DNA of 11,702 nucleotides from Octopus sinensis (Eukaryota), in contig NW_021826902.1 of assembly GCF_006345805.1 (NCBI RefSeq), positions 1 through 11,702 on the forward strand, in the 5' to 3' direction. Numbering within the stretch: position 1 is the stretch's first letter; the number at the start of each line of letters is the position of its first letter. Below the pieces are notes generated by a model. It did not search any database. It was not told the DNA's origin and saw only the letters and a program-made list of their open reading frames with translations. The translations under genes were made by a program, and so were the position numbers. This document shows positions 2,577 to 11,702 of this stretch, piece by piece.

Positions 2577-2653
2577 GTGTGTCTGCGCGTGTGTATGTGT
2601 ATGTGCGTGTGTGCGTGTATGTGTATATGAATGTATGTATGAATATATATATA
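2577..2653. repeat. (TG)n/(TA)n microsatellite forming the left flank of the transposon
   Basis: TGTGTG/TGTATG/TATATA run ending in the TA target dinucleotide at 2652-2653. Confidence 0.9.
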
Positions 2654-2677
2654 CAGGATGCAGTGAATAAATTGTCG
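2654..2677 (+). repeat. Left terminal inverted repeat of the maT element
   Basis: CAGGATGCAGTGAATAAATTGTCG, preceded by TA. Confidence 0.9.
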
Positions 2678-2773
2678 TTTAAATTACACAAAAAATGAAA
2701 ATAACACTGACATCATTTTAACAAATATTTACCAAAATTACATAAAAATATCTTGAAATACTAAAGAGTAAAT

Positions 2774-3822
2774 TTATTCAATAAAATCGCCATTGACTTC
2801 AATCACGGCCTCCAGACGACTTCGGAATCTCTTGCAACTCTTCTAGACAGTCTCCTTTTTTAAGTTGGTCAATGCTGCCATATCCTTGCCGTCAGTACAT
2901 TTTGGTGTTACAAGGAGTTTTGTTGGTCTCACGCTCATCTGTGACCCACACATGACAACCAAGGGGGTTGCAGTCTGGGGAGCTAGGTGGCCAGATGTTA
3001 GGGGTGATGTGATCGCAGAAACTGTCTGACAGCCATGACTGGGTTCTCCTGCTTGTGTGGCATCGTGCAGAGTCCTGTTGCCAGACATAGAGTCTTCCAG
3101 CAGCCACCCTCTTCACCCAGAGCAGTACTACCTCCTCCAGGCACTCAATGTAGACCTCTGTATTGAGTCTGAGGCCGTGTGGGAAGATGAATGGAGGTAT
3201 AACGTCGCCATCACTAATGATCACTCCAAACACCATAATGTTGACTGGACGTTTTGCTTTTATCACTCTCGGTATATATTTTGGGGACACGGCAAGCCAA
3301 CGGATTTTCTGGGTGTTCATCATCTGATCTTGGCAGAAATTTATCTCGTCTGAGAAAAACCAAAGCAAGTTCGGTTGGAGGGGATGTTTGAGTTTGTTCA
3401 AAAGCTTCGCAGCGCGGTCTTTCCTCTTGTCCTTGATGGCTTGGGATAAAAATTGACCATTTTCATCTTGTATTAGGAATACCGAATGTCTTCATGCACT
3501 ACCTGGCTGATAGGAAACTCAGGCACTTCCATGTCCCTGGCGATGGACCTCATCCACTAGGAGGGATCGTTGTCAATCATGGCCTGAATCTTACCAACAA
3601 ATTCAGGATTTTTTTTCTTATCTGAACGATCAGAGTGAGTTTTCCGAGTTGCTGTACCTTTGTAGTCACCATTAAACTGATCCAACTCTTTCTGAATTCT
3701 CTGCACTGTCCTCAGATTGACACATCCAAACACTCTGAAATTTTTGTACTGGAGCTACCAGTGCGAATGCCAAGTAGTACAGCATGTCGTTTCCAAATTT
3801 CTGGCAGAGTGAAAAACATCAT
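2774..3822 (-). pseudogene. DD37D (maT) transposase pseudogene
   Basis: Reconstructed reading: MMFFTLPEIWKRHAVLLGIRTG...NLRTVQRIQKEL (HTH-like)...MIDNDPS*WMRSIARDM...WFFSDE...IMVFGVIISDG...WQQDSARCH...WPPSSPDCNPLG...RFRSRLEAVIEVNGDFIE*. There are 37 residues between the second D (QQD) and the third catalytic position, which is here G. Stops at 3557-3559, 3473-3475 and 2843-2845; frameshifts near 3721, 3459 and 2880-2900. Confidence 0.93.
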
Positions 3823-3931
3823 GGCGCTATTTTTCTCACAGGCGGTGCCCAACTAACCCTACTATACAGCGTAGTCGAGAAAATCAAAAACAAACAATGC
3901 GCATATGTGAAATTAAATATATACAAAATGG

Positions 3932-3955
3932 CGACAATTTACCCATCGCACCCTG
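3932..3955 (-). repeat. Right terminal inverted repeat of the maT element
   Basis: CGACAATTTACCCATCGCACCCTG, followed by TA. Confidence 0.9.
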
Positions 3956-3977
3956 TATATATGTTTGTATTCATGTC

Positions 3978-4324: not shown

Positions 4325-6084
4325 CTGCTGAATAAATCTACGTAGAAAGGGAAAATAAACTATTCTACAATGTGGACAAATAAACGCGGTAATAGATCTA
4401 TCCAATCTGATAACGATGGTAATTTCCAGTTACGTAACAAGTGCTTCTCGTACTGTCTGTATTTTGTAACATTTCAACCTTAGCGATTAAGTAGAGTCTA
4501 TAATTGCGTACATTTTCAAGATTAGATTTTAATCAGTTGTGTAAAGGTTATATATTTTTTTTATTTCCGTTCTTGTAAGGTCTTTTCATTAAGAATCTAT
4601 TTAATGTTATTTCGAAACTACTTTTTGAGCTAACACTTTGGTATAATGTTATTATACAACCGGTTTCATTTTCATAGTGATAACATCCACTTCATATTTC
4701 GTTGCTGCTGTATTACAAGAGATACTGTGTTGATATGTACTGACTTTAATACATGAATACCTGATCTCAGTTTTCATACTAGTGGTATAATTGTAGTTTA
4801 ATAGCTGTTGTATATACATGCATAAACGTAATACCCTACTCCACTCAAGTTTTTAAGACACTTAATGACCTCGACAGAAAGATTTCCAATTTCTTCCCAA
4901 GAAAACAATTAAACGATAGATCTGAGTTTTCAATATATCAAGGGCATATGAAAGAATTGGAAATTACCTTCACTACTAGAACATTCCTGACAGCCCCCTA
5001 ACATCCCTACCTGTATTCATTGAGGGGTGTATTCTTTCTCTTTTGTATTATCTATTAATTAGCATTCGTACTCAGCTGGTATGTGTGTCTTCGCGTATAT
5101 TTATATGTATGTACACATACATGTGTATGTGTGTTGTGTGTGTATACGTCTCCTTTTCTACTTATACACCTTTAGTTTTATTTGTTGTCTTAAAATTTTT
5201 ATTTCATTATTTAATTATCACATTTCCTTCTTTTATTGATTTCTGTTTATTATTGTCAACACAAAGAGAAATAAATAAATTTCGTGCATTAAGCTTTATT
5301 CCCACACTAAGGAATACTTTTAAAGATTTAAAATTGTATATATGTTAAATCACGTTCAATAAACAAGTTTGATAAATATCCAATGAATATTAATTTAGAT
5401 CAAATATCAATCAAGTAATAGCTTACTATACGCTCGTACAACTATGTTCAAAATTCCGCTGAAACTAACGATTTCACTGCTTTGCTTTCTTGGAATCACA
5501 GGCGGCCTTTATCGAGACGACAGGCTTCTATTCCTAAGTGGTGTCAATCCGTGAGTGTCCAATGGATTCAGAAAAAATCCTAGTTTCAAATAATTGTAGA
5601 AGCTAATCTCCCCAAGACAAACTATGTTATTCTAGTCCTATCCACTTTCTTTTCTTACATGAGTCACAAACCTAATGAAATGTTAAATTAATTTTCTTAG
5701 ACACTTTATTTATCCAACCTTTCTTTCTCACTTAATGTACCTATTTTTTTTTTACATATAACAATGAAACTTTGGTCAGAAACAATTTTCACCTCCCATC
5801 CCAATGACAGAAACAGCAAATAACAAGATACGAAACAACATAACTTAATACGCGCCTCGGTCCAATATAACAGTCACTAAACCATTAGATCAAGTATCTC
5901 TAAGTCCCTTAAGAAGTATTTTCTCTTAAGTCATAAATAAAATTGCTATCAACTTTCGCATTCACCTACTCAATAGCTATTCACAAAATATTCCGCGTTG
6001 TATTTAAAGAAAAGTTAAGTTTTAAAAGCCGGTTATATTCTCATACCGATAACATACCGATAACAATGTCTTATACCTCATTTT

Positions 6085-6325
6085 GGCGTGCATGGCTTAG
6101 TGGTTAAGGTGTTGATCTTATGATCGTAAGGTTATGGTTTCGATTCCTGGATCGGGTGATGCGTTGTGTTCTTGAGCAAAACACTTCATTTCACCTTGCT
6201 CCAGTCCACTCAGCTGGCAAAAATGAGTAATCCTGCGACGGACTGGCGTCCCGTCCAGGTGGGGAATTTCTATGCCGCTGAAACCGGGAAACCGGCCCTT
6301 ATGAGCCCGGCATGGCTCGAGAAGG
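6085..6325 (+). mobile_element. tRNA-derived SINE with a CORE-like central domain
   Basis: Starts GGCGTGCA; A box TGGCTTAGTGG (6093-6103); B-box-like GTTTCGATTCC (6137-6147). CORE-like block TTGTGTTCTTGAGCAAAACACTTCATTTCACCTTGCTCCAGTCCACTCAGCTGGCAAAAATGAGTA follows, then CCTGCGACGGACTGGCGTCCCGTCCAGG. It is a GC-rich island in AT-rich flanks. Possible partial TSD ATACCTC at 6073-6079 and 6326-6332. Confidence 0.85.
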
Positions 6326-6741
6326 ATACCTCGATACACGTGCCTATATCAACTAATATGCTTCAACATTGTTTTTGTGTATAAAATATTTTATGTTATT
6401 AAACAATCCTCTAATAAATATTTTTTCACCCCACTGTTATTAACGTTTGTAAATCCACCATAGTTAACTCCTCATTGACGTGTATAACTGTTAGCCTTAT
6501 TTTGTATTGTTTTTGGCTTTGATTGTATTAACATTTCAACTGACTTCACTTATTTTTTCATCTTTGCTTCGTTCTATCTCGACACTCCAAAGAGTATTAT
6601 CGAAACTGTATTATCATATTAAATGTCGATTTAATCGAATAAAAAGCACCCCCCACTCTATATTTGTTGTATATTAAGTACTTTCTATTCGGCAGTGACT
6701 ACTTCTGTTTCAACCAACAAATTTTTTTTACCATACAACAA

Positions 6742-6754
6742 ATATATATATATA

Positions 6755-6786
<32 letters not shown>

Positions 6787-7045
6787 CAAAAAAATATACT
6801 TATATATATAACACACATATTCATATATATATATTTTATATTAAAAATATATGTATATATACATGTATATATACAGACATATGTATATATATATGTATAT
6901 ATATGTATATATGCATATATGCAGCTATATATGCATGTATGTGACATCGGATGATTGCATACAAGAATGTATGAAAGTATATAAATATATCTGTATATGC
7001 ATGAGTGTATGTTTATATTTATATATATATATGTATGTGAATGCA
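6742..7045. repeat. Degenerate (TA)n/(TATG)n low-complexity tract
   Basis: Alternating TA with occasional G/C substitutions. Confidence 0.9.
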
Positions 7046-8912: not shown

Positions 8913-9316
8913 ATCTTTTCTACTCTAGGCACAAGGCCCTAAATTTTGGGGGAAGGGGGGGGCAGTCGATTAGATCGACCCCAGTACACAACTGGTACTT
9001 AATTTATCGACCCCGAAAGATGAAAGGCAAAGTCAACCTCGGCAGCATTTGAACTCAGAATGTAGCCGCAGACGAAATACCTATTTCTTTACTACCCACA
9101 AGGGGCTAAACACAGAGAGAGACAAACAAGGACAGACAAACGGATTAAGTCGGTTATATCAACCCCAGTGCGTAACTGGTACCTATTTAATTGACCCCAA
9201 AAGGATGAAAGGCAAAGTCGACCTCGGTGGAATTTGAACTCAGAATGTAGCAGCGGACAAAATACCGCTAAGCATTTCGCCCGGCGTGCTAACGTTTCTG
9301 CCAGCTCACCGCCTTT
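8913..9316 (-). mobile_element. Full-length octopus-type tRNA-SINE with a duplicated central domain and an 11-bp TSD
   Basis: Minus-strand head GGCGGTGAGCTGGCAGAAACGTTAG (from 9313); B box GAGTTCAAATTCC (9241-9229); central block GAGGT(C/T)GACTTTGCCTTTCATC...GGGGTC...GTACCAG present twice (9148-9266 and 8964-9081). Flanked by a perfect direct repeat CAGTAGTATTA at 8902-8912 and 9317-9327. Confidence 0.92.
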
Positions 9317-9532
9317 CAGTAGTATTATTGAAAACTTATAGCGTATAAGTACTAATATATTACGGATCAGTGTTGCTTTTGGAAATGAATATTCAATAGT
9401 TTGTTCAGCTGTATCATATACTCGTGAACATGGTGTGGAAGTGACGTGAACTGTTAACATTATTCTCACGTGGATCAAACGTGAAACTCAATGACAGGGT
9501 CATGCCCTAGAACTGCAGCTATGAGTGCATAC

Positions 9533-9614
9533 GTGTGTGTGTGTGTATGTGTGGCTGCGTGTGTGTGGCTGTGTGTGAGTATGTGTGTGAGTGTATGCTT
9601 ATGAATATATATAT
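9533..9614. repeat. (TG)n/(TA)n microsatellite
   Basis: Imperfect TG run followed by a short TA run. Confidence 0.85.
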
Positions 9615-9617
9615 AAC

Positions 9618-10250
9618 TTTTTACATACGCCTAAGTGCCTCGTCTGCTGAAGAAAAAGTAAGAAATTGCTATACTAATGGCGGATATTGTGGTAGAAAGA
9701 CGTGTATATCACTGACTTATTGCTTTAAGACAATCAGACTGTCTTTTCTTCAATTACATGTCAATTTTGGAAAATGACTGACACTTCAGATTATCTCTTC
9801 TCATTTAGAGCTGGAACTAATAGCTACCAAACGATTAGTTTACCTACTCCAAAAGGGGGACAGTTTCAATAACCCCCAAAATTATTTTGTATGTTATGTA
9901 ATTTGCTTATAATCGATTTTGCAGTTCAAATAGATGCCACTGGCAATTCGGAGTTATTTCTCTTAGCTTATTTTCTTTTCATATATGCAAATTACCTCGG
10001 CCATGTGTTCTACTCTTGTTTTATATTTGTTTAAATGTCTCAGCTGTTAAACATACGTTCCGGAAAGTACTTTATTGATACTGATGACATCTATTGAGGT
10101 AGAAACACGTGATCTTCTTGTCTTCAGACAATCAGACTGTACATGAATATGAAGAATGTCGCTCTTTCGCATTTGGAGTTGGTGCCAATTGATATCAGAC
10201 GACCTACTCTCTTTAGAGGCGGAAATAATTTTAATAAATCAATAATTTAT
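9618..10250 (+). repeat. Diverged ~400-bp tandem direct repeat (about 1.6 copies), each copy carrying a decayed hammerhead motif
   Basis: Collinear shared blocks: TAA(G/A)TG(C/T)CTC..CTG(C/T)T(G/A)AA (9632/10032); ATACT(A/G)ATG....TATTG.GGTAGAAA.ACGTG (9671/10078); perfect AGACAATCAGACTGT (9728-9742 and 10126-10140); CATTT(A/G)GAG(C/T)TGG (9802/10170); ACCTACTC (9842/10202). Confidence 0.8.
10076..10114 (+). ncRNA. Decayed minimal hammerhead motif, copy B (copy A at ~9666-9711)
   Basis: TGATA CTGATGA C-ATCT-ATTG-AGGT-A GAAA CACGTG (ATC). Copy A retains the matching 3' end GTG-TA-TATCA, which is complementary to TGATA. Confidence 0.55.
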
Positions 10251-10287
10251 CTCATAAGTTATTTTAATATACGTACAGTCATTTTTG

Positions 10288-10290
10288 TTA

Positions 10291-10336
<46 letters not shown>

Positions 10337-10348
10337 ATATATATATAT
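10288..10348. repeat. (TA)n microsatellite
   Basis: Near-pure TA run separating two repeat modules. Confidence 0.9.
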
Positions 10349-10497
10349 CACCTCGGATCTTCTTTCTTCTCCTATGTTTCGACGAAGAGCTCCGCTCGAA
10401 ACGTCATACCCTCCTTCCCTTTTTTCCTGAGCGCCTAATAATACTTTATTGTTCCACTCTTTGCGTTTGTTGTCTTTTTTGTTTTCTTGTTGGATTA

Positions 10498-10501
<4 letters not shown>
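10349..10501 (+). mobile_element. ~150-bp Penelope-like 3'-end/pseudo-LTR fragment between (TA)n tracts, with a decayed hammerhead at 10376-10409
   Basis: GTTT C-GACGA A GAGC-TCC-GCTC GAAA CG TC ATAC: perfect 4-bp stem II, GAAA, ACGT palindrome and GUC triplet, but the core lacks one nucleotide (CUGACGA to CGACGA). Followed by a T-rich tail and flanked by TA repeats on both sides. Confidence 0.6.
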
Positions 10502-10534
<33 letters not shown>

Positions 10535-10563
10535 GGATATATATGAATAATACACACACACAC
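10502..10563. repeat. (TA)n/(CA)n microsatellite
   Basis: TA run at 10502-10529 followed by short CA runs. Confidence 0.9.
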
Positions 10564-10594
10564 TCTTTATTATAAAGCCGCAAAACATCAAAGA

Positions 10595-10636
10595 AACTGC
10601 TACTCAGAGTTTCACATACCCGTTCGTCAGACAGTT
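10595..10636 (-). ncRNA. Apparently intact minimal type I hammerhead ribozyme; predicted cleavage after GUA, between 10601 and 10600
   Basis: Minus strand: AACTGT CTGACGA ACG-GGTA-TGT GAAA CTC-T-GAG TA^GCAGTT. Stem I is 6 bp (AACUGU/GCAGUU), the core is CUGANGA, stem II is 3 bp plus a tetraloop, then GAAA, a quasi-palindromic stem III ACUC(U)GAGU, and NUH = GUA. Confidence 0.8.
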
Positions 10637-10687
10637 ATGATTCAGGATTGGAACAAGAAATACTCTCTGGAGAGAGCAGCACCAGAT

Positions 10688-10811
10688 AAACATGAAACGT
10701 ATAGAAGTTCAATGAGGTGCAATTTGTGTCTAACTGAAAAATTCTTCATCCTTTTCCACGATAAATACGCTCTGAACTAAAAGGTTGGAGCTCTTAAATT
10801 TCTGTAGATAA
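10688..10811 (+). pseudogene. Remnant of the C-terminus of a Penelope-like element GIY-YIG endonuclease
   Basis: Translates as KHETYRSSMRCNLCLTEKFFILFHDKYALN-(+1 T at 10778)-KRLELLNFCR*. This matches my recollection of the CxLCLxEK...LNKRxEL...CRH C-terminal motif of invertebrate Penelope-like ORFs. It is absent from the ORF track because it is short and frameshifted. Confidence 0.7.
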
Positions 10812-10958
10812 TCCACGGAGTATGAAATGTCGAGCGAAAAAATACCATACGGGTAACATTGACTTTCGCATTGGAATTCGACTTAGAACCGGCACCACTT
10901 TGTACAACATTTGTTTTACATTTTTGCCTTTCAAGTAAAACTTCGACTGGAAACGAAC

Positions 10959-11240
10959 TATATATTTTATTTTTATTATATATATATAATTTATTTTTAT
11001 TATATATATTATTATATGATATACATATAATTATTTTATTTTTATTACATATATTATTATATTATATACATATATATTATTTTTTTTATCATATATTATC
11101 ATATTATATACATATATATTATTTTATTTTTATTACATATATTGTTATATATATTTTAATTTTTATTTTCATTATTTTATTTGTTATTATTTTACTGTCA
11201 TTATTTTTATTTTCATTATTTATTGTAACTTTTTACTTTT
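10959..11240. repeat. AT-rich degenerate (TTA/TA)n low-complexity region
   Basis: Nearly G/C-free, with recurring TATTATATACATATATATTATT units. Confidence 0.85.
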
Positions 11241-11399
11241 AATTTACACCTTTAATAATCATATGAAAGTTTTTTCTTACATTCGTAATTTAGCCCATAG
11301 AACCTTTCACGTTGATTTTTAATGTACACATAAAAAAGGCAGCCATCATTGCCCAAAATGTGTTGTATAGATACTGAACACCCGAATGAATTTTTTAAC

Positions 11400-11523
11400 C
11401 ATTTTTTTTTAGTTATTATTTTTGAATTTTTTGTTATTTTATTTTATTATTATTATTATTATTATTGCTTAATTATTTTACTATATTCGTTTTTAATTTA
11501 TTATATTATTATTATTATTATTA

Positions 11524-11558
<35 letters not shown>
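11400..11558. repeat. (TAT)n trinucleotide microsatellite
   Basis: TATTATTAT runs at ~11445-11466 and ~11504-11556. Confidence 0.9.
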
Positions 11559-11570
11559 GATTGTTAATAA

Positions 11571-11640
11571 GACAGGAATGCTGACAGAATCTTAGGGGCT
11601 GGACAAACGTTTAGTAATATTTCAAAATCTCTCGTGGAGG
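11571..11640 (+). mobile_element. Highly decayed 5' head of the same SINE family as 8913-9316
   Basis: CTGACAGAATC-TTAGGG-GCTGGACAAACGTTTAGTAATATTT aligns by eye to the head CTGGCAGAAACGTTAGCACGCCGGGCGAAATGCTTAGCGGTATTT. Confidence 0.5.
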
Positions 11641-11702
11641 CGCCATCCAACTAAAAGCAAATATATGGGAAACTACCACCTGTGTCATCTCTTGTGAAGG
11701 GT

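What the first reader, a model, noticed from the sequence alone, without database searches (positions are those of the whole stretch)
9618..10830. Nest of four hammerhead motifs from three unrelated families plus a GIY-YIG remnant in ~1.2 kb, partitioned by (TA)n tracts
Seen: the order is (TG/TA)n - [HHR repeat x2, +] - (TA)n - [HHR fragment, +] - (TA/CA)n - [intact HHR, -][GIY-YIG C-terminus, +] - AT-rich tract. The stems differ completely between families, so they are independent insertions. Inferred: several ribozyme-bearing retroelement families share a target preference for TA microsatellites and pile up there. They could form an autonomous/non-autonomous system that uses, and perhaps expands, the abundant microsatellites of this genome.
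Basis: partly seen in the sequence, partly recalled or inferred. Interest (0 to 1): 0.7.

Follow-up and report, generated by a model that had tools for sequence, protein, structure and literature searches.

The report
Penelope retroelement pile-up in TA repeats
This stretch holds decayed ends of three separate jumping-gene insertions sitting in simple TA-type repeats, two from protein-coding Penelope-like families and one from an old non-coding repeat likely copied by such families; only one of its four hammerhead (self-cutting RNA) motifs still has an intact predicted fold, and such pile-ups are ordinary in this genome.

Summary
The four motifs are real, but there are three insertions, not four, and three motifs are broken. 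(A) 9618-10288: 1.6 units of an old, non-coding ~400-bp hammerhead repeat (retrozyme-like); both motifs damaged. (B) 10349-10500: 3' tip of a Neptune/Nematis-type Penelope-like element (PLE) with its own RT and GIY-YIG ORF; 8,924 exact core copies. (C) The intact minus-strand hammerhead and the GIY-YIG remnant are one Hydra-clade PLE insertion: an inverted 3' end joined to a truncated sense copy. The 'AT-rich tract' is its own 3' UTR. B and C ends abut (TA)n (26 of 27; 25 of 34; background 5-8%); A is weakly linked. In 1.2 Mb of random genome, different families cluster beyond uniform chance (11 pairs versus 3.8, p=0.002), but pairs do not exceed placement on TA tracts (p=0.11), and two three-family nests occurred. 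TA tracts after B ends are no longer than expected from splitting existing tracts. Hammerheads in PLE ends, inverted 5' pieces, (TA)n targeting and an octopus Hydra element are published (PMC4209133, PMC8557442). This scan reported similar pile-ups on other DNA of this genome. New members of known kinds.

The parts
9533..9615 (.). (TG)n then short (TA)n microsatellite, 5' flank of repeat A
9618..10288 (+). Family A: about 1.6 units of an old ~400-bp non-coding hammerhead repeat (retrozyme-like); two profile hits, 9618-9970 and 9921-10296
9668..9712 (+). HHR1, decayed type I hammerhead: G5 and A9 of the core substituted, stem II broken
10075..10111 (+). HHR2, type I hammerhead with intact CUGANGA and GAAA boxes but cleavage site and 3' strand of stem I deleted
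10289..10348 (.). (TA)n tract between A and B
10349..10500 (+). Family B: 5'-truncated 3' tip (152 bp) of a Neptune/Nematis-type Penelope-like element, ending at the family's fixed 3' end
10374..10410 (+). HHR3, minimal type I hammerhead of family B with a 1-nt deletion in the core
10501..10562 (.). (TA)n/(CA)n tract shared by the 3' end of B and the 3' end of the inverted arm of C
10563..10662 (-). Family C inverted arm: 3' terminus of a Hydra-clade PLE, ending at the family's short end (no ~70-nt tail)
10595..10636 (-). HHR4, the only intact type I motif (stem I 6 bp, stem II 3 bp, palindromic stem III 4 bp)
10667..10857 (+). Family C sense arm: C-terminal part of the GIY-YIG endonuclease (CxxC and E present; premature stop at 10778-10780, broken beyond)
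   Evidence: 25 of 37 residues identical to L150
10858..11465 (+). Family C low-complexity 3' UTR (the 'AT-rich tract'), with a local 45-bp tandem expansion

Best explanation
The region is three independent, decayed retro-insertions lying in TA-type microsatellites: the 3' tip of a Neptune/Nematis-type Penelope-like element, an inverted-plus-sense insertion of a Hydra-clade Penelope-like element, and an older non-coding ~400-bp hammerhead repeat likely copied in trans by a Penelope-like enzyme. Shown: family membership, ends, ORFs in longer copies, TA adjacency and the clustering statistics. Inferred from known PLE biology: each family's GIY-YIG endonuclease nicks (TA)n and the RT primes there from the RNA 3' end. 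5' truncation leaves mostly short 3' tips, and because the hammerhead lies near that 3' end the debris looks like hammerhead cassettes. In C a second, inverted 5'-truncated copy was joined head-to-head. Nests arise because TA tracts are frequent (one per ~1.3 kb) and clumped, and several families share them. No cooperation between A, B and C is needed. By divergence A and C are older than B.
For: B: 26 of 27 copies have (TA)4 within 10 nt of a fixed 3' end, versus 5.1% of random positions. Of 26 loci examined, 17 were truncated within the profile; 10 of these have TA and 14 some microsatellite at the 5' junction too, versus 8.3% and 14.7%, which points to a pre-existing target. Long copies L146 and L148 carry RT (DKG, YIDD), a CX4CxxC linker and GIY-YIG; 2 of 149 matches lie in 1008-aa open frames. 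C: the hammerhead is sense, 1.1-1.5 kb downstream of the endonuclease in L018/L154, L019, L029, L152 and L009/L155, and inverted upstream of it in L006, L013 and L021, as here. DKT, CxCX5C, CxxC and CxH motifs are present. 25 of 34 arms with a called end abut TA and 31 of 34 some microsatellite (22 further arms had no called end or a partial tail). A: period 366-418 nt in 21 of 26 estimates, no long ORF. Its core is more conserved than letter-matched columns, 90.6% versus 78.3% in 17 copies, p=0.00015. Clustering in 120 random 10-kb loci: 66 events; 11 cross-family pairs within 1.2 kb versus 3.8 (uniform), 7.1 (TA tracts) and 22.4 (length-weighted TA tracts).
Against: Triples exceed the unweighted TA-tract null marginally (2 versus 0.30, p about 0.046; length-weighted 3.6, p=0.66), and one of the two triples (L288) is old and not TA-flanked. 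Family A shows no TA enrichment at profile ends (7 of 71 and 3 of 71 versus 7.8%) and only modest enrichment with a better anchor (TA 12 of 42 versus 16.9%; any microsatellite 25 of 42 versus 27.5%). A loci have other families nearby less often than background (3 of 39 versus 14.8%), so its place in the nest may be chance. No enzyme partner was linked to A. Clade names rest on motifs, not a tree. The family library was seeded from the same random sample used for the clustering test. No empty target site was seen.
Confidence: 0.85

Rival explanations
1. A, B and C form one cooperating autonomous/non-autonomous system that homes into each other's neighbourhood.
For: Cross-family clustering above uniform (p=0.002) and within-locus (p=0.013) nulls; B nested in the 3' UTR of C in L155.
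Against: B and C encode their own, different enzymes. Pair clustering is not above TA-tract nulls (p=0.11, 0.97). Ages differ: best-hit identities average about 90% (B), 75-85% (C) and 72% (A). A loci are not enriched for other families.
Confidence: 0.05
2. The elements make or lengthen the TA tracts at insertion (a slippage-made tail), so the tracts are products rather than targets.
For: A fixed 3' end is followed by TA in nearly all B copies; tracts after B ends are longer than the average tract (median 22 versus 16, p=0.006).
Against: TA or another microsatellite is also found at variable 5' truncation points. 3' tract lengths match length-biased splitting of existing tracts (median 22 versus 27, p=0.73).
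Confidence: 0.1
3. Family A is not a retrozyme but the truncated terminal repeat of an extinct coding PLE whose ORF was not recovered.
For: Scattered 5' ends and concentrated 3' ends, as in PLE debris; PLE terminal repeats also form partial tandems (PMC8557442, section 6).
Against: The unit is cyclically permuted with a constant ~400-nt period, and no copy runs into coding sequence. PLE protein hits occurred in 2 of 67 A loci besides this locus, both weak and separate.
Confidence: 0.2

Closest known systems
Hydra clade of Penelope-like elements, including Hydra-1_Obim (Craig et al. 2021, PMC8557442; read: abstract, sections 6, 11, 15, passages, File S1 Hydra sheet, File S2, fragments of the protein alignment)
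   Same: C-terminal GIY-YIG, DKT, CxCX5C linker, CxxC and CxH near the catalytic E and N, sense hammerhead near the 3' end with a palindromic stem III like Hydra-1/2_Ajap, (TA)n insertion, inverted 5'-truncated copy, tail at one end only.
   Different: The hammerhead sequence differs from that listed for Hydra-1_oBim, so family C is a different family. Its 3' UTR is ~1.3-1.5 kb and its tail ~70 nt (30-40 bp in the paper). Copies examined are broken.
Neptune (or Nematis) PLEs with minimal hammerheads (PMC4209133, parts 1-2 of 4 read; PMC8557442)
   Same: RT with DKG, CX2-5CxxC linker, CCHH-type GIY-YIG, minimal type I hammerhead with palindromic 15.2-16.2 pair, mostly single truncated motifs, microsatellite bias.
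   Different: 3' UTR of ~3.5 kb rich in CA/TACA repeats. Most copies read C at core position 4 (72 of the first 100 of 7,946 matches); U4C is known from a viroid (PMC3088659, passages).
Metazoan non-LTR retrozymes (PMC7229834, passages; bioRxiv 10.64898/2026.07.22.740005, part 1 of 5 and passages)
   Same: Non-coding tandem monomers with one type I hammerhead each; mussel units are ~350-390 bp versus ~400 here; proposed PLE origin and mobilisation.
   Different: Family A is old (copies 60-81% identical to the majority sequence), mostly 1-1.6 units, both motifs here are broken, and expression is unknown.

Membership tests
Hydra-clade PLE (family C) | RT followed by C-terminal GIY-YIG endonuclease | tested here: met
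   RT and EN remnants collinear in L151, L152, L155
Hydra-clade PLE (family C) | DKG modified to DKT | tested here: met
   SDKT in L155; seen in 1 of 4 copies translated, the others are truncated or broken there
Hydra-clade PLE (family C) | CxCX5C linker | tested here: met
   L155; partly decayed versions in L014 and L020
Hydra-clade PLE (family C) | CxxC and CxH flanking catalytic E and N; no CCHH | tested here: met
   CNLC..EK and CRH in most of the 24 copies printed; CxxC and E in the window; absence of CCHH judged by eye
Hydra-clade PLE (family C) | RWK motif near N-terminus; length under 3 kb | tested here: inconclusive
   No 5'-complete copy recovered; RWK not found in 4 truncated copies
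Hydra-clade PLE (family C) | Sense hammerhead near 3' end and (TA)n insertion | tested here: met
Hydra-clade PLE (family C) | RT phylogenetic placement | not tested
   No reference sequences were available to the tree tools; similarity to Hydra-1_Obim judged by eye
Neptune/Nematis PLE (family B) | DKG motif, RT core, CX2-5CxxC linker, CCHH-type GIY-YIG | tested here: met
   L148 and L146; Pfam GIY-YIG E=0.001 and 0.007, below the curated cut-off
Neptune/Nematis PLE (family B) | Minimal hammerhead at 3' end | tested here: met
   Family motif; the window copy is defective
Neptune/Nematis PLE (family B) | Neptune versus Nematis by RT tree | not tested
   no tree built
Non-LTR retrozyme (family A) | Type I hammerhead in each unit | tested here: met
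   Copy L205 passes the strict descriptor; family columns give paired stems I-III; core conserved
Non-LTR retrozyme (family A) | Short tandem non-coding monomer | tested here: met
   Period ~400 nt; longest stop-free stretch 91 codons in six frames
Non-LTR retrozyme (family A) | Two consecutive complete hammerheads ('active' criterion of the bioRxiv paper) | tested here: not met
   Both motifs at this locus are broken; so it is filed as a retrozyme-like relic, not an active retrozyme
Non-LTR retrozyme (family A) | Self-cleavage and circular RNA | not testable with these tools
   needs an in vitro assay and stranded RNA

The most novel reading that the evidence does not exclude
Penelope-like elements in this genome spread their own landing sites. 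Family B carries a ~3.5-kb CA/TACA-rich 3' UTR shared between copies (79-87% identity over 1.4-2.7 kb segments), family C a ~1.3-kb UTR with TA/TATG tracts, and B is found inserted inside C's UTR (L155). Retrotransposed microsatellite cargo would then feed further PLE and retrozyme insertion and help explain the very high microsatellite density, with family A an uncatalogued ~400-nt cephalopod retrozyme riding on this machinery.
Probability: 0.25. Interest if true: 0.5.

Novelty: new member of a known kind. Interest (0 to 1): 0.22.

Why it matters
Mainly annotation value. It shows that the many hammerhead motifs in this genome are 3' debris of TA-targeting Penelope-like elements, at least 55 insertion events per Mb for the seven multi-copy families detected, and that multi-family nests are expected (roughly thousands genome-wide). 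Family B, with ~9,000 exact core copies and 1008-aa open frames, would be a usable source for studying PLE target choice, which PMC8557442 (section 15) names as unresolved. Family A adds a probable cephalopod retrozyme relic.

Tried and rejected
Rfam scan: no hammerhead model hit, only microsatellite-driven miRNA/snoRNA matches. Pfam found nothing for the window's 77-aa GIY-YIG frame; identity rests on homologous copies. Free-energy folding did not recover the hammerhead fold for the window motifs (z 0.55, -2.46, 0.47, -0.22), which is uninformative for such short, dimer-type motifs. Family A as antisense coding sequence: rejected, 6-13 stops per frame. The C11 match as a second copy: rejected, it starts at an assembly gap. 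A sense-arm hammerhead for this C insertion: none found in 30 kb of C11. A loose end pattern gave many false 'short' ends and was replaced by a hammerhead-anchored one. Sequencing runs: no RNA holder listed. Four contig sets were laid on 9400-10950; no piece spans the stretch and no empty site was seen. The random background is 120 loci from C1-C28 (1.2 Mb), not the 140 planned. Paper searches found no description of these particular families; Repbase and Dfam could not be searched and the bioRxiv supplements were not seen, so they may already be catalogued.

Full report
Setting. The window is all of contig C3373 of a 2.72-Gb genome. It looks octopus-like; this rests on a recalled SINE and on similarity to the published octopus element Hydra-1_Obim, not on a test. 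Window 9013-11702 matches C11 at 97.8%, starting at a 100-N gap in C11, so that match is the same locus assembled twice.

Motif check. A strict type I hammerhead descriptor found one motif in the window, 10595-10636 on the minus strand (stems 6, 3 and 4 bp), and none in 1000 shuffles of 9618-10830. The other three are recognisable but broken. HHR1 has two core substitutions, HHR2 lacks the cleavage site and 3' strand of stem I, and HHR3 lacks one core base relative to its family. Rfam returned no hammerhead.

Family B (10349-10500). A 24-mer from its core has 8,924 exact matches, control 0. The best 28 other copies share a fixed 3' end. After removing one duplicate, 26 of 27 have (TA)4 within 10 nt, against 5.1% of random positions. 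5' ends vary: of 26 loci, 9 extend beyond the 290-nt profile, and of the 17 truncated ones 10 have TA and 14 some microsatellite at the 5' junction, against 8.3% and 14.7%. Extending long copies reached, ~3.5 kb upstream through a CA/TACA-rich UTR, an ORF with DKG, YIDD, a CX4CxxC linker and a CCHH-type GIY-YIG (L146, L148). Two of 149 scored protein matches lie in 1008-aa open frames. B is therefore the truncated tip of a coding Neptune/Nematis-type PLE. Most copies read C at core position 4 (72 of the first 100 listed of 7,946). The T copies may be CpG decay (inference); U4C is known from a viroid (PMC3088659).

Family C (10563-11465). Among the 28 loci fetched with the GIY-YIG piece, several also carry the hammerhead piece. 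It is sense and 1.1-1.5 kb downstream in L018/L154, L019, L029, L152 and L009/L155, and inverted and upstream in L006, L013 and L021. In the window the strand switch lies at about 10662-10668. So HHR4 and the endonuclease remnant are one insertion of the inverted type drawn in Fig. 2 of PMC8557442. The AT-rich tract aligns with the family's 3' UTR up to about 11465, and in C11 the UTR resumes after an RTE-like insertion; no sense hammerhead survives within 30 kb. Longer copies show DKT, CxCX5C, CxxC and CxH, the features given for the Hydra clade. The paper lists Hydra-1_Obim with (TA)n preference; its hammerhead differs from ours, so C is another family. Of 56 hammerhead-anchored arms, 34 had a called end (20 short, 14 with a ~70-nt tail); 25 of these abut TA and 31 some microsatellite. 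Of 7 inverted pairs, 4 were short plus long, 2 short plus partial tail and 1 both partial; a looser pattern gave 15 short-plus-long of 26, with several false calls. The closest protein matches to C are broken, while a sister family at about 60% identity has open frames up to 766 aa.

Family A (9618-10288). Copies are dispersed and old, 60-81% identical to the majority sequence. They repeat with a period of 366-418 nt in 21 of 26 estimates, and the longest stop-free stretch in six frames is 91 codons. In 17 copies chosen by overall homology the column majority forms a full type I hammerhead, and its ten core letters are more conserved than letter-matched columns (90.6% versus 78.3%, p=0.00015). 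One random copy (L205) passes the strict descriptor. This fits a relic non-LTR retrozyme (mussel units are ~350-390 bp, PMC7229834). TA adjacency is weak: 7 of 71 3' and 3 of 71 5' profile ends versus 7.8%. With a 3' anchor, 12 of 42 had TA and 25 of 42 any microsatellite within 150 nt, versus 16.9% and 27.5%. PLE protein hits were found in 2 of 67 A loci apart from this locus, both separate from the repeat.

Is the nest special? I drew 120 random 10-kb loci from C1-C28. TA tracts of 5 or more units occur once per 1.3 kb. A strict descriptor found 15 motifs versus 0 in reversed and complemented controls. A library seeded from a relaxed scan (38 hits versus 6 and 6) gave 72 events, 66 in seven multi-copy families; six single-copy candidates were left out of the statistics. 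Cross-family pairs within 1.2 kb numbered 11, against 3.8 under uniform placement (p=0.002), 5.7 within-locus (p=0.013), 7.1 on TA tracts (p=0.11) and 22.4 on length-weighted tracts (p=0.97). Three-family nests within 1,213 bp numbered 2, against 0.04, 0.10, 0.30 (p about 0.046) and 3.6. Scaled by my arithmetic, that is about 4,500 such nests genome-wide (Poisson range about 550-16,000). Around selected loci, another family lay within ~1.5 kb in 5 of 24 B, 8 of 28 C-end and 3 of 39 A loci. Random backgrounds were 10%, 14% and 15%, and TA-centred backgrounds 15%, 23% and 25%. Not all hammerhead families are TA-linked: E 2 of 13, G 0 of 3.

Do they expand the tracts? TA tracts after 27 B ends (median 22 nt) are longer than average tracts (16) but match the remainder expected from splitting a length-biased tract (27; p=0.73). 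No empty site was available.

Mechanism. Inferred from established PLE biology: endonuclease nicking at (TA)n, target-primed reverse transcription from the 3' end, heavy 5' truncation and inverted second arms. Hammerheads near PLE ends, mostly as single truncated motifs, with low and dimer-dependent activity in vitro, are described in PMC4209133. Microsatellite bias of Neptune, Naiad and Hydra elements is discussed in PMC8557442. A PLE origin of animal retrozymes is argued in bioRxiv 10.64898/2026.07.22.740005. Cleavage by any motif here is untested.

Verdict. Real, mostly explained, new members of known kinds. Earlier notes of this scan on other DNA of the same genome describe similar pile-ups; they prompted my short/long end test but are not counted as evidence. 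Interest 0.22.

Noticed in passing
window 9013-11702 versus G000:C11 (L144): The contig overlaps the sequence right after a 100-N gap in C11, while 4330-5060 is found only in this contig; C3373 probably belongs at that gap.
   Followed up: partly
window 11557-11702 and L144 ~6500-6900: 3' end of an RTE-like LINE (name recalled from its translated motifs) after a (TTA)n tract, interrupting the 3' UTR of family C.
   Followed up: partly
window 2645-3960, minus strand: Decayed Tc1/mariner-like transposase (weak DDE_3 hit, E=0.003, below cut-off).
   Followed up: no
window 8921-9315 and 6086-6330: Two abundant SINE-like repeats, the first as a tandem; 244 and 95 profile hits in 1.2 Mb.
   Followed up: no
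family B genome-wide; families C and E in random loci: C instead of U at hammerhead core position 4 in most B copies and in some C (9 of 36) and E copies; activity unknown.
   Followed up: partly
L146, L147, L148, L149: Family B has a ~3.5-kb 3' UTR made largely of CA/TACA-type simple repeats shared between copies.
   Followed up: partly
L252:734-1174: A random-sample nest of three families (B, D, inverted C pair) within 440 bp, tighter than the window's.
   Followed up: yes
L217, L231, L255, L190 (family E): Another abundant hammerhead repeat that is mostly not TA-adjacent (2 of 13).
   Followed up: no
L147:2170-4000: Gypsy-like RT, RNase H and integrase frames upstream of a B copy (name recalled).
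   Followed up: no
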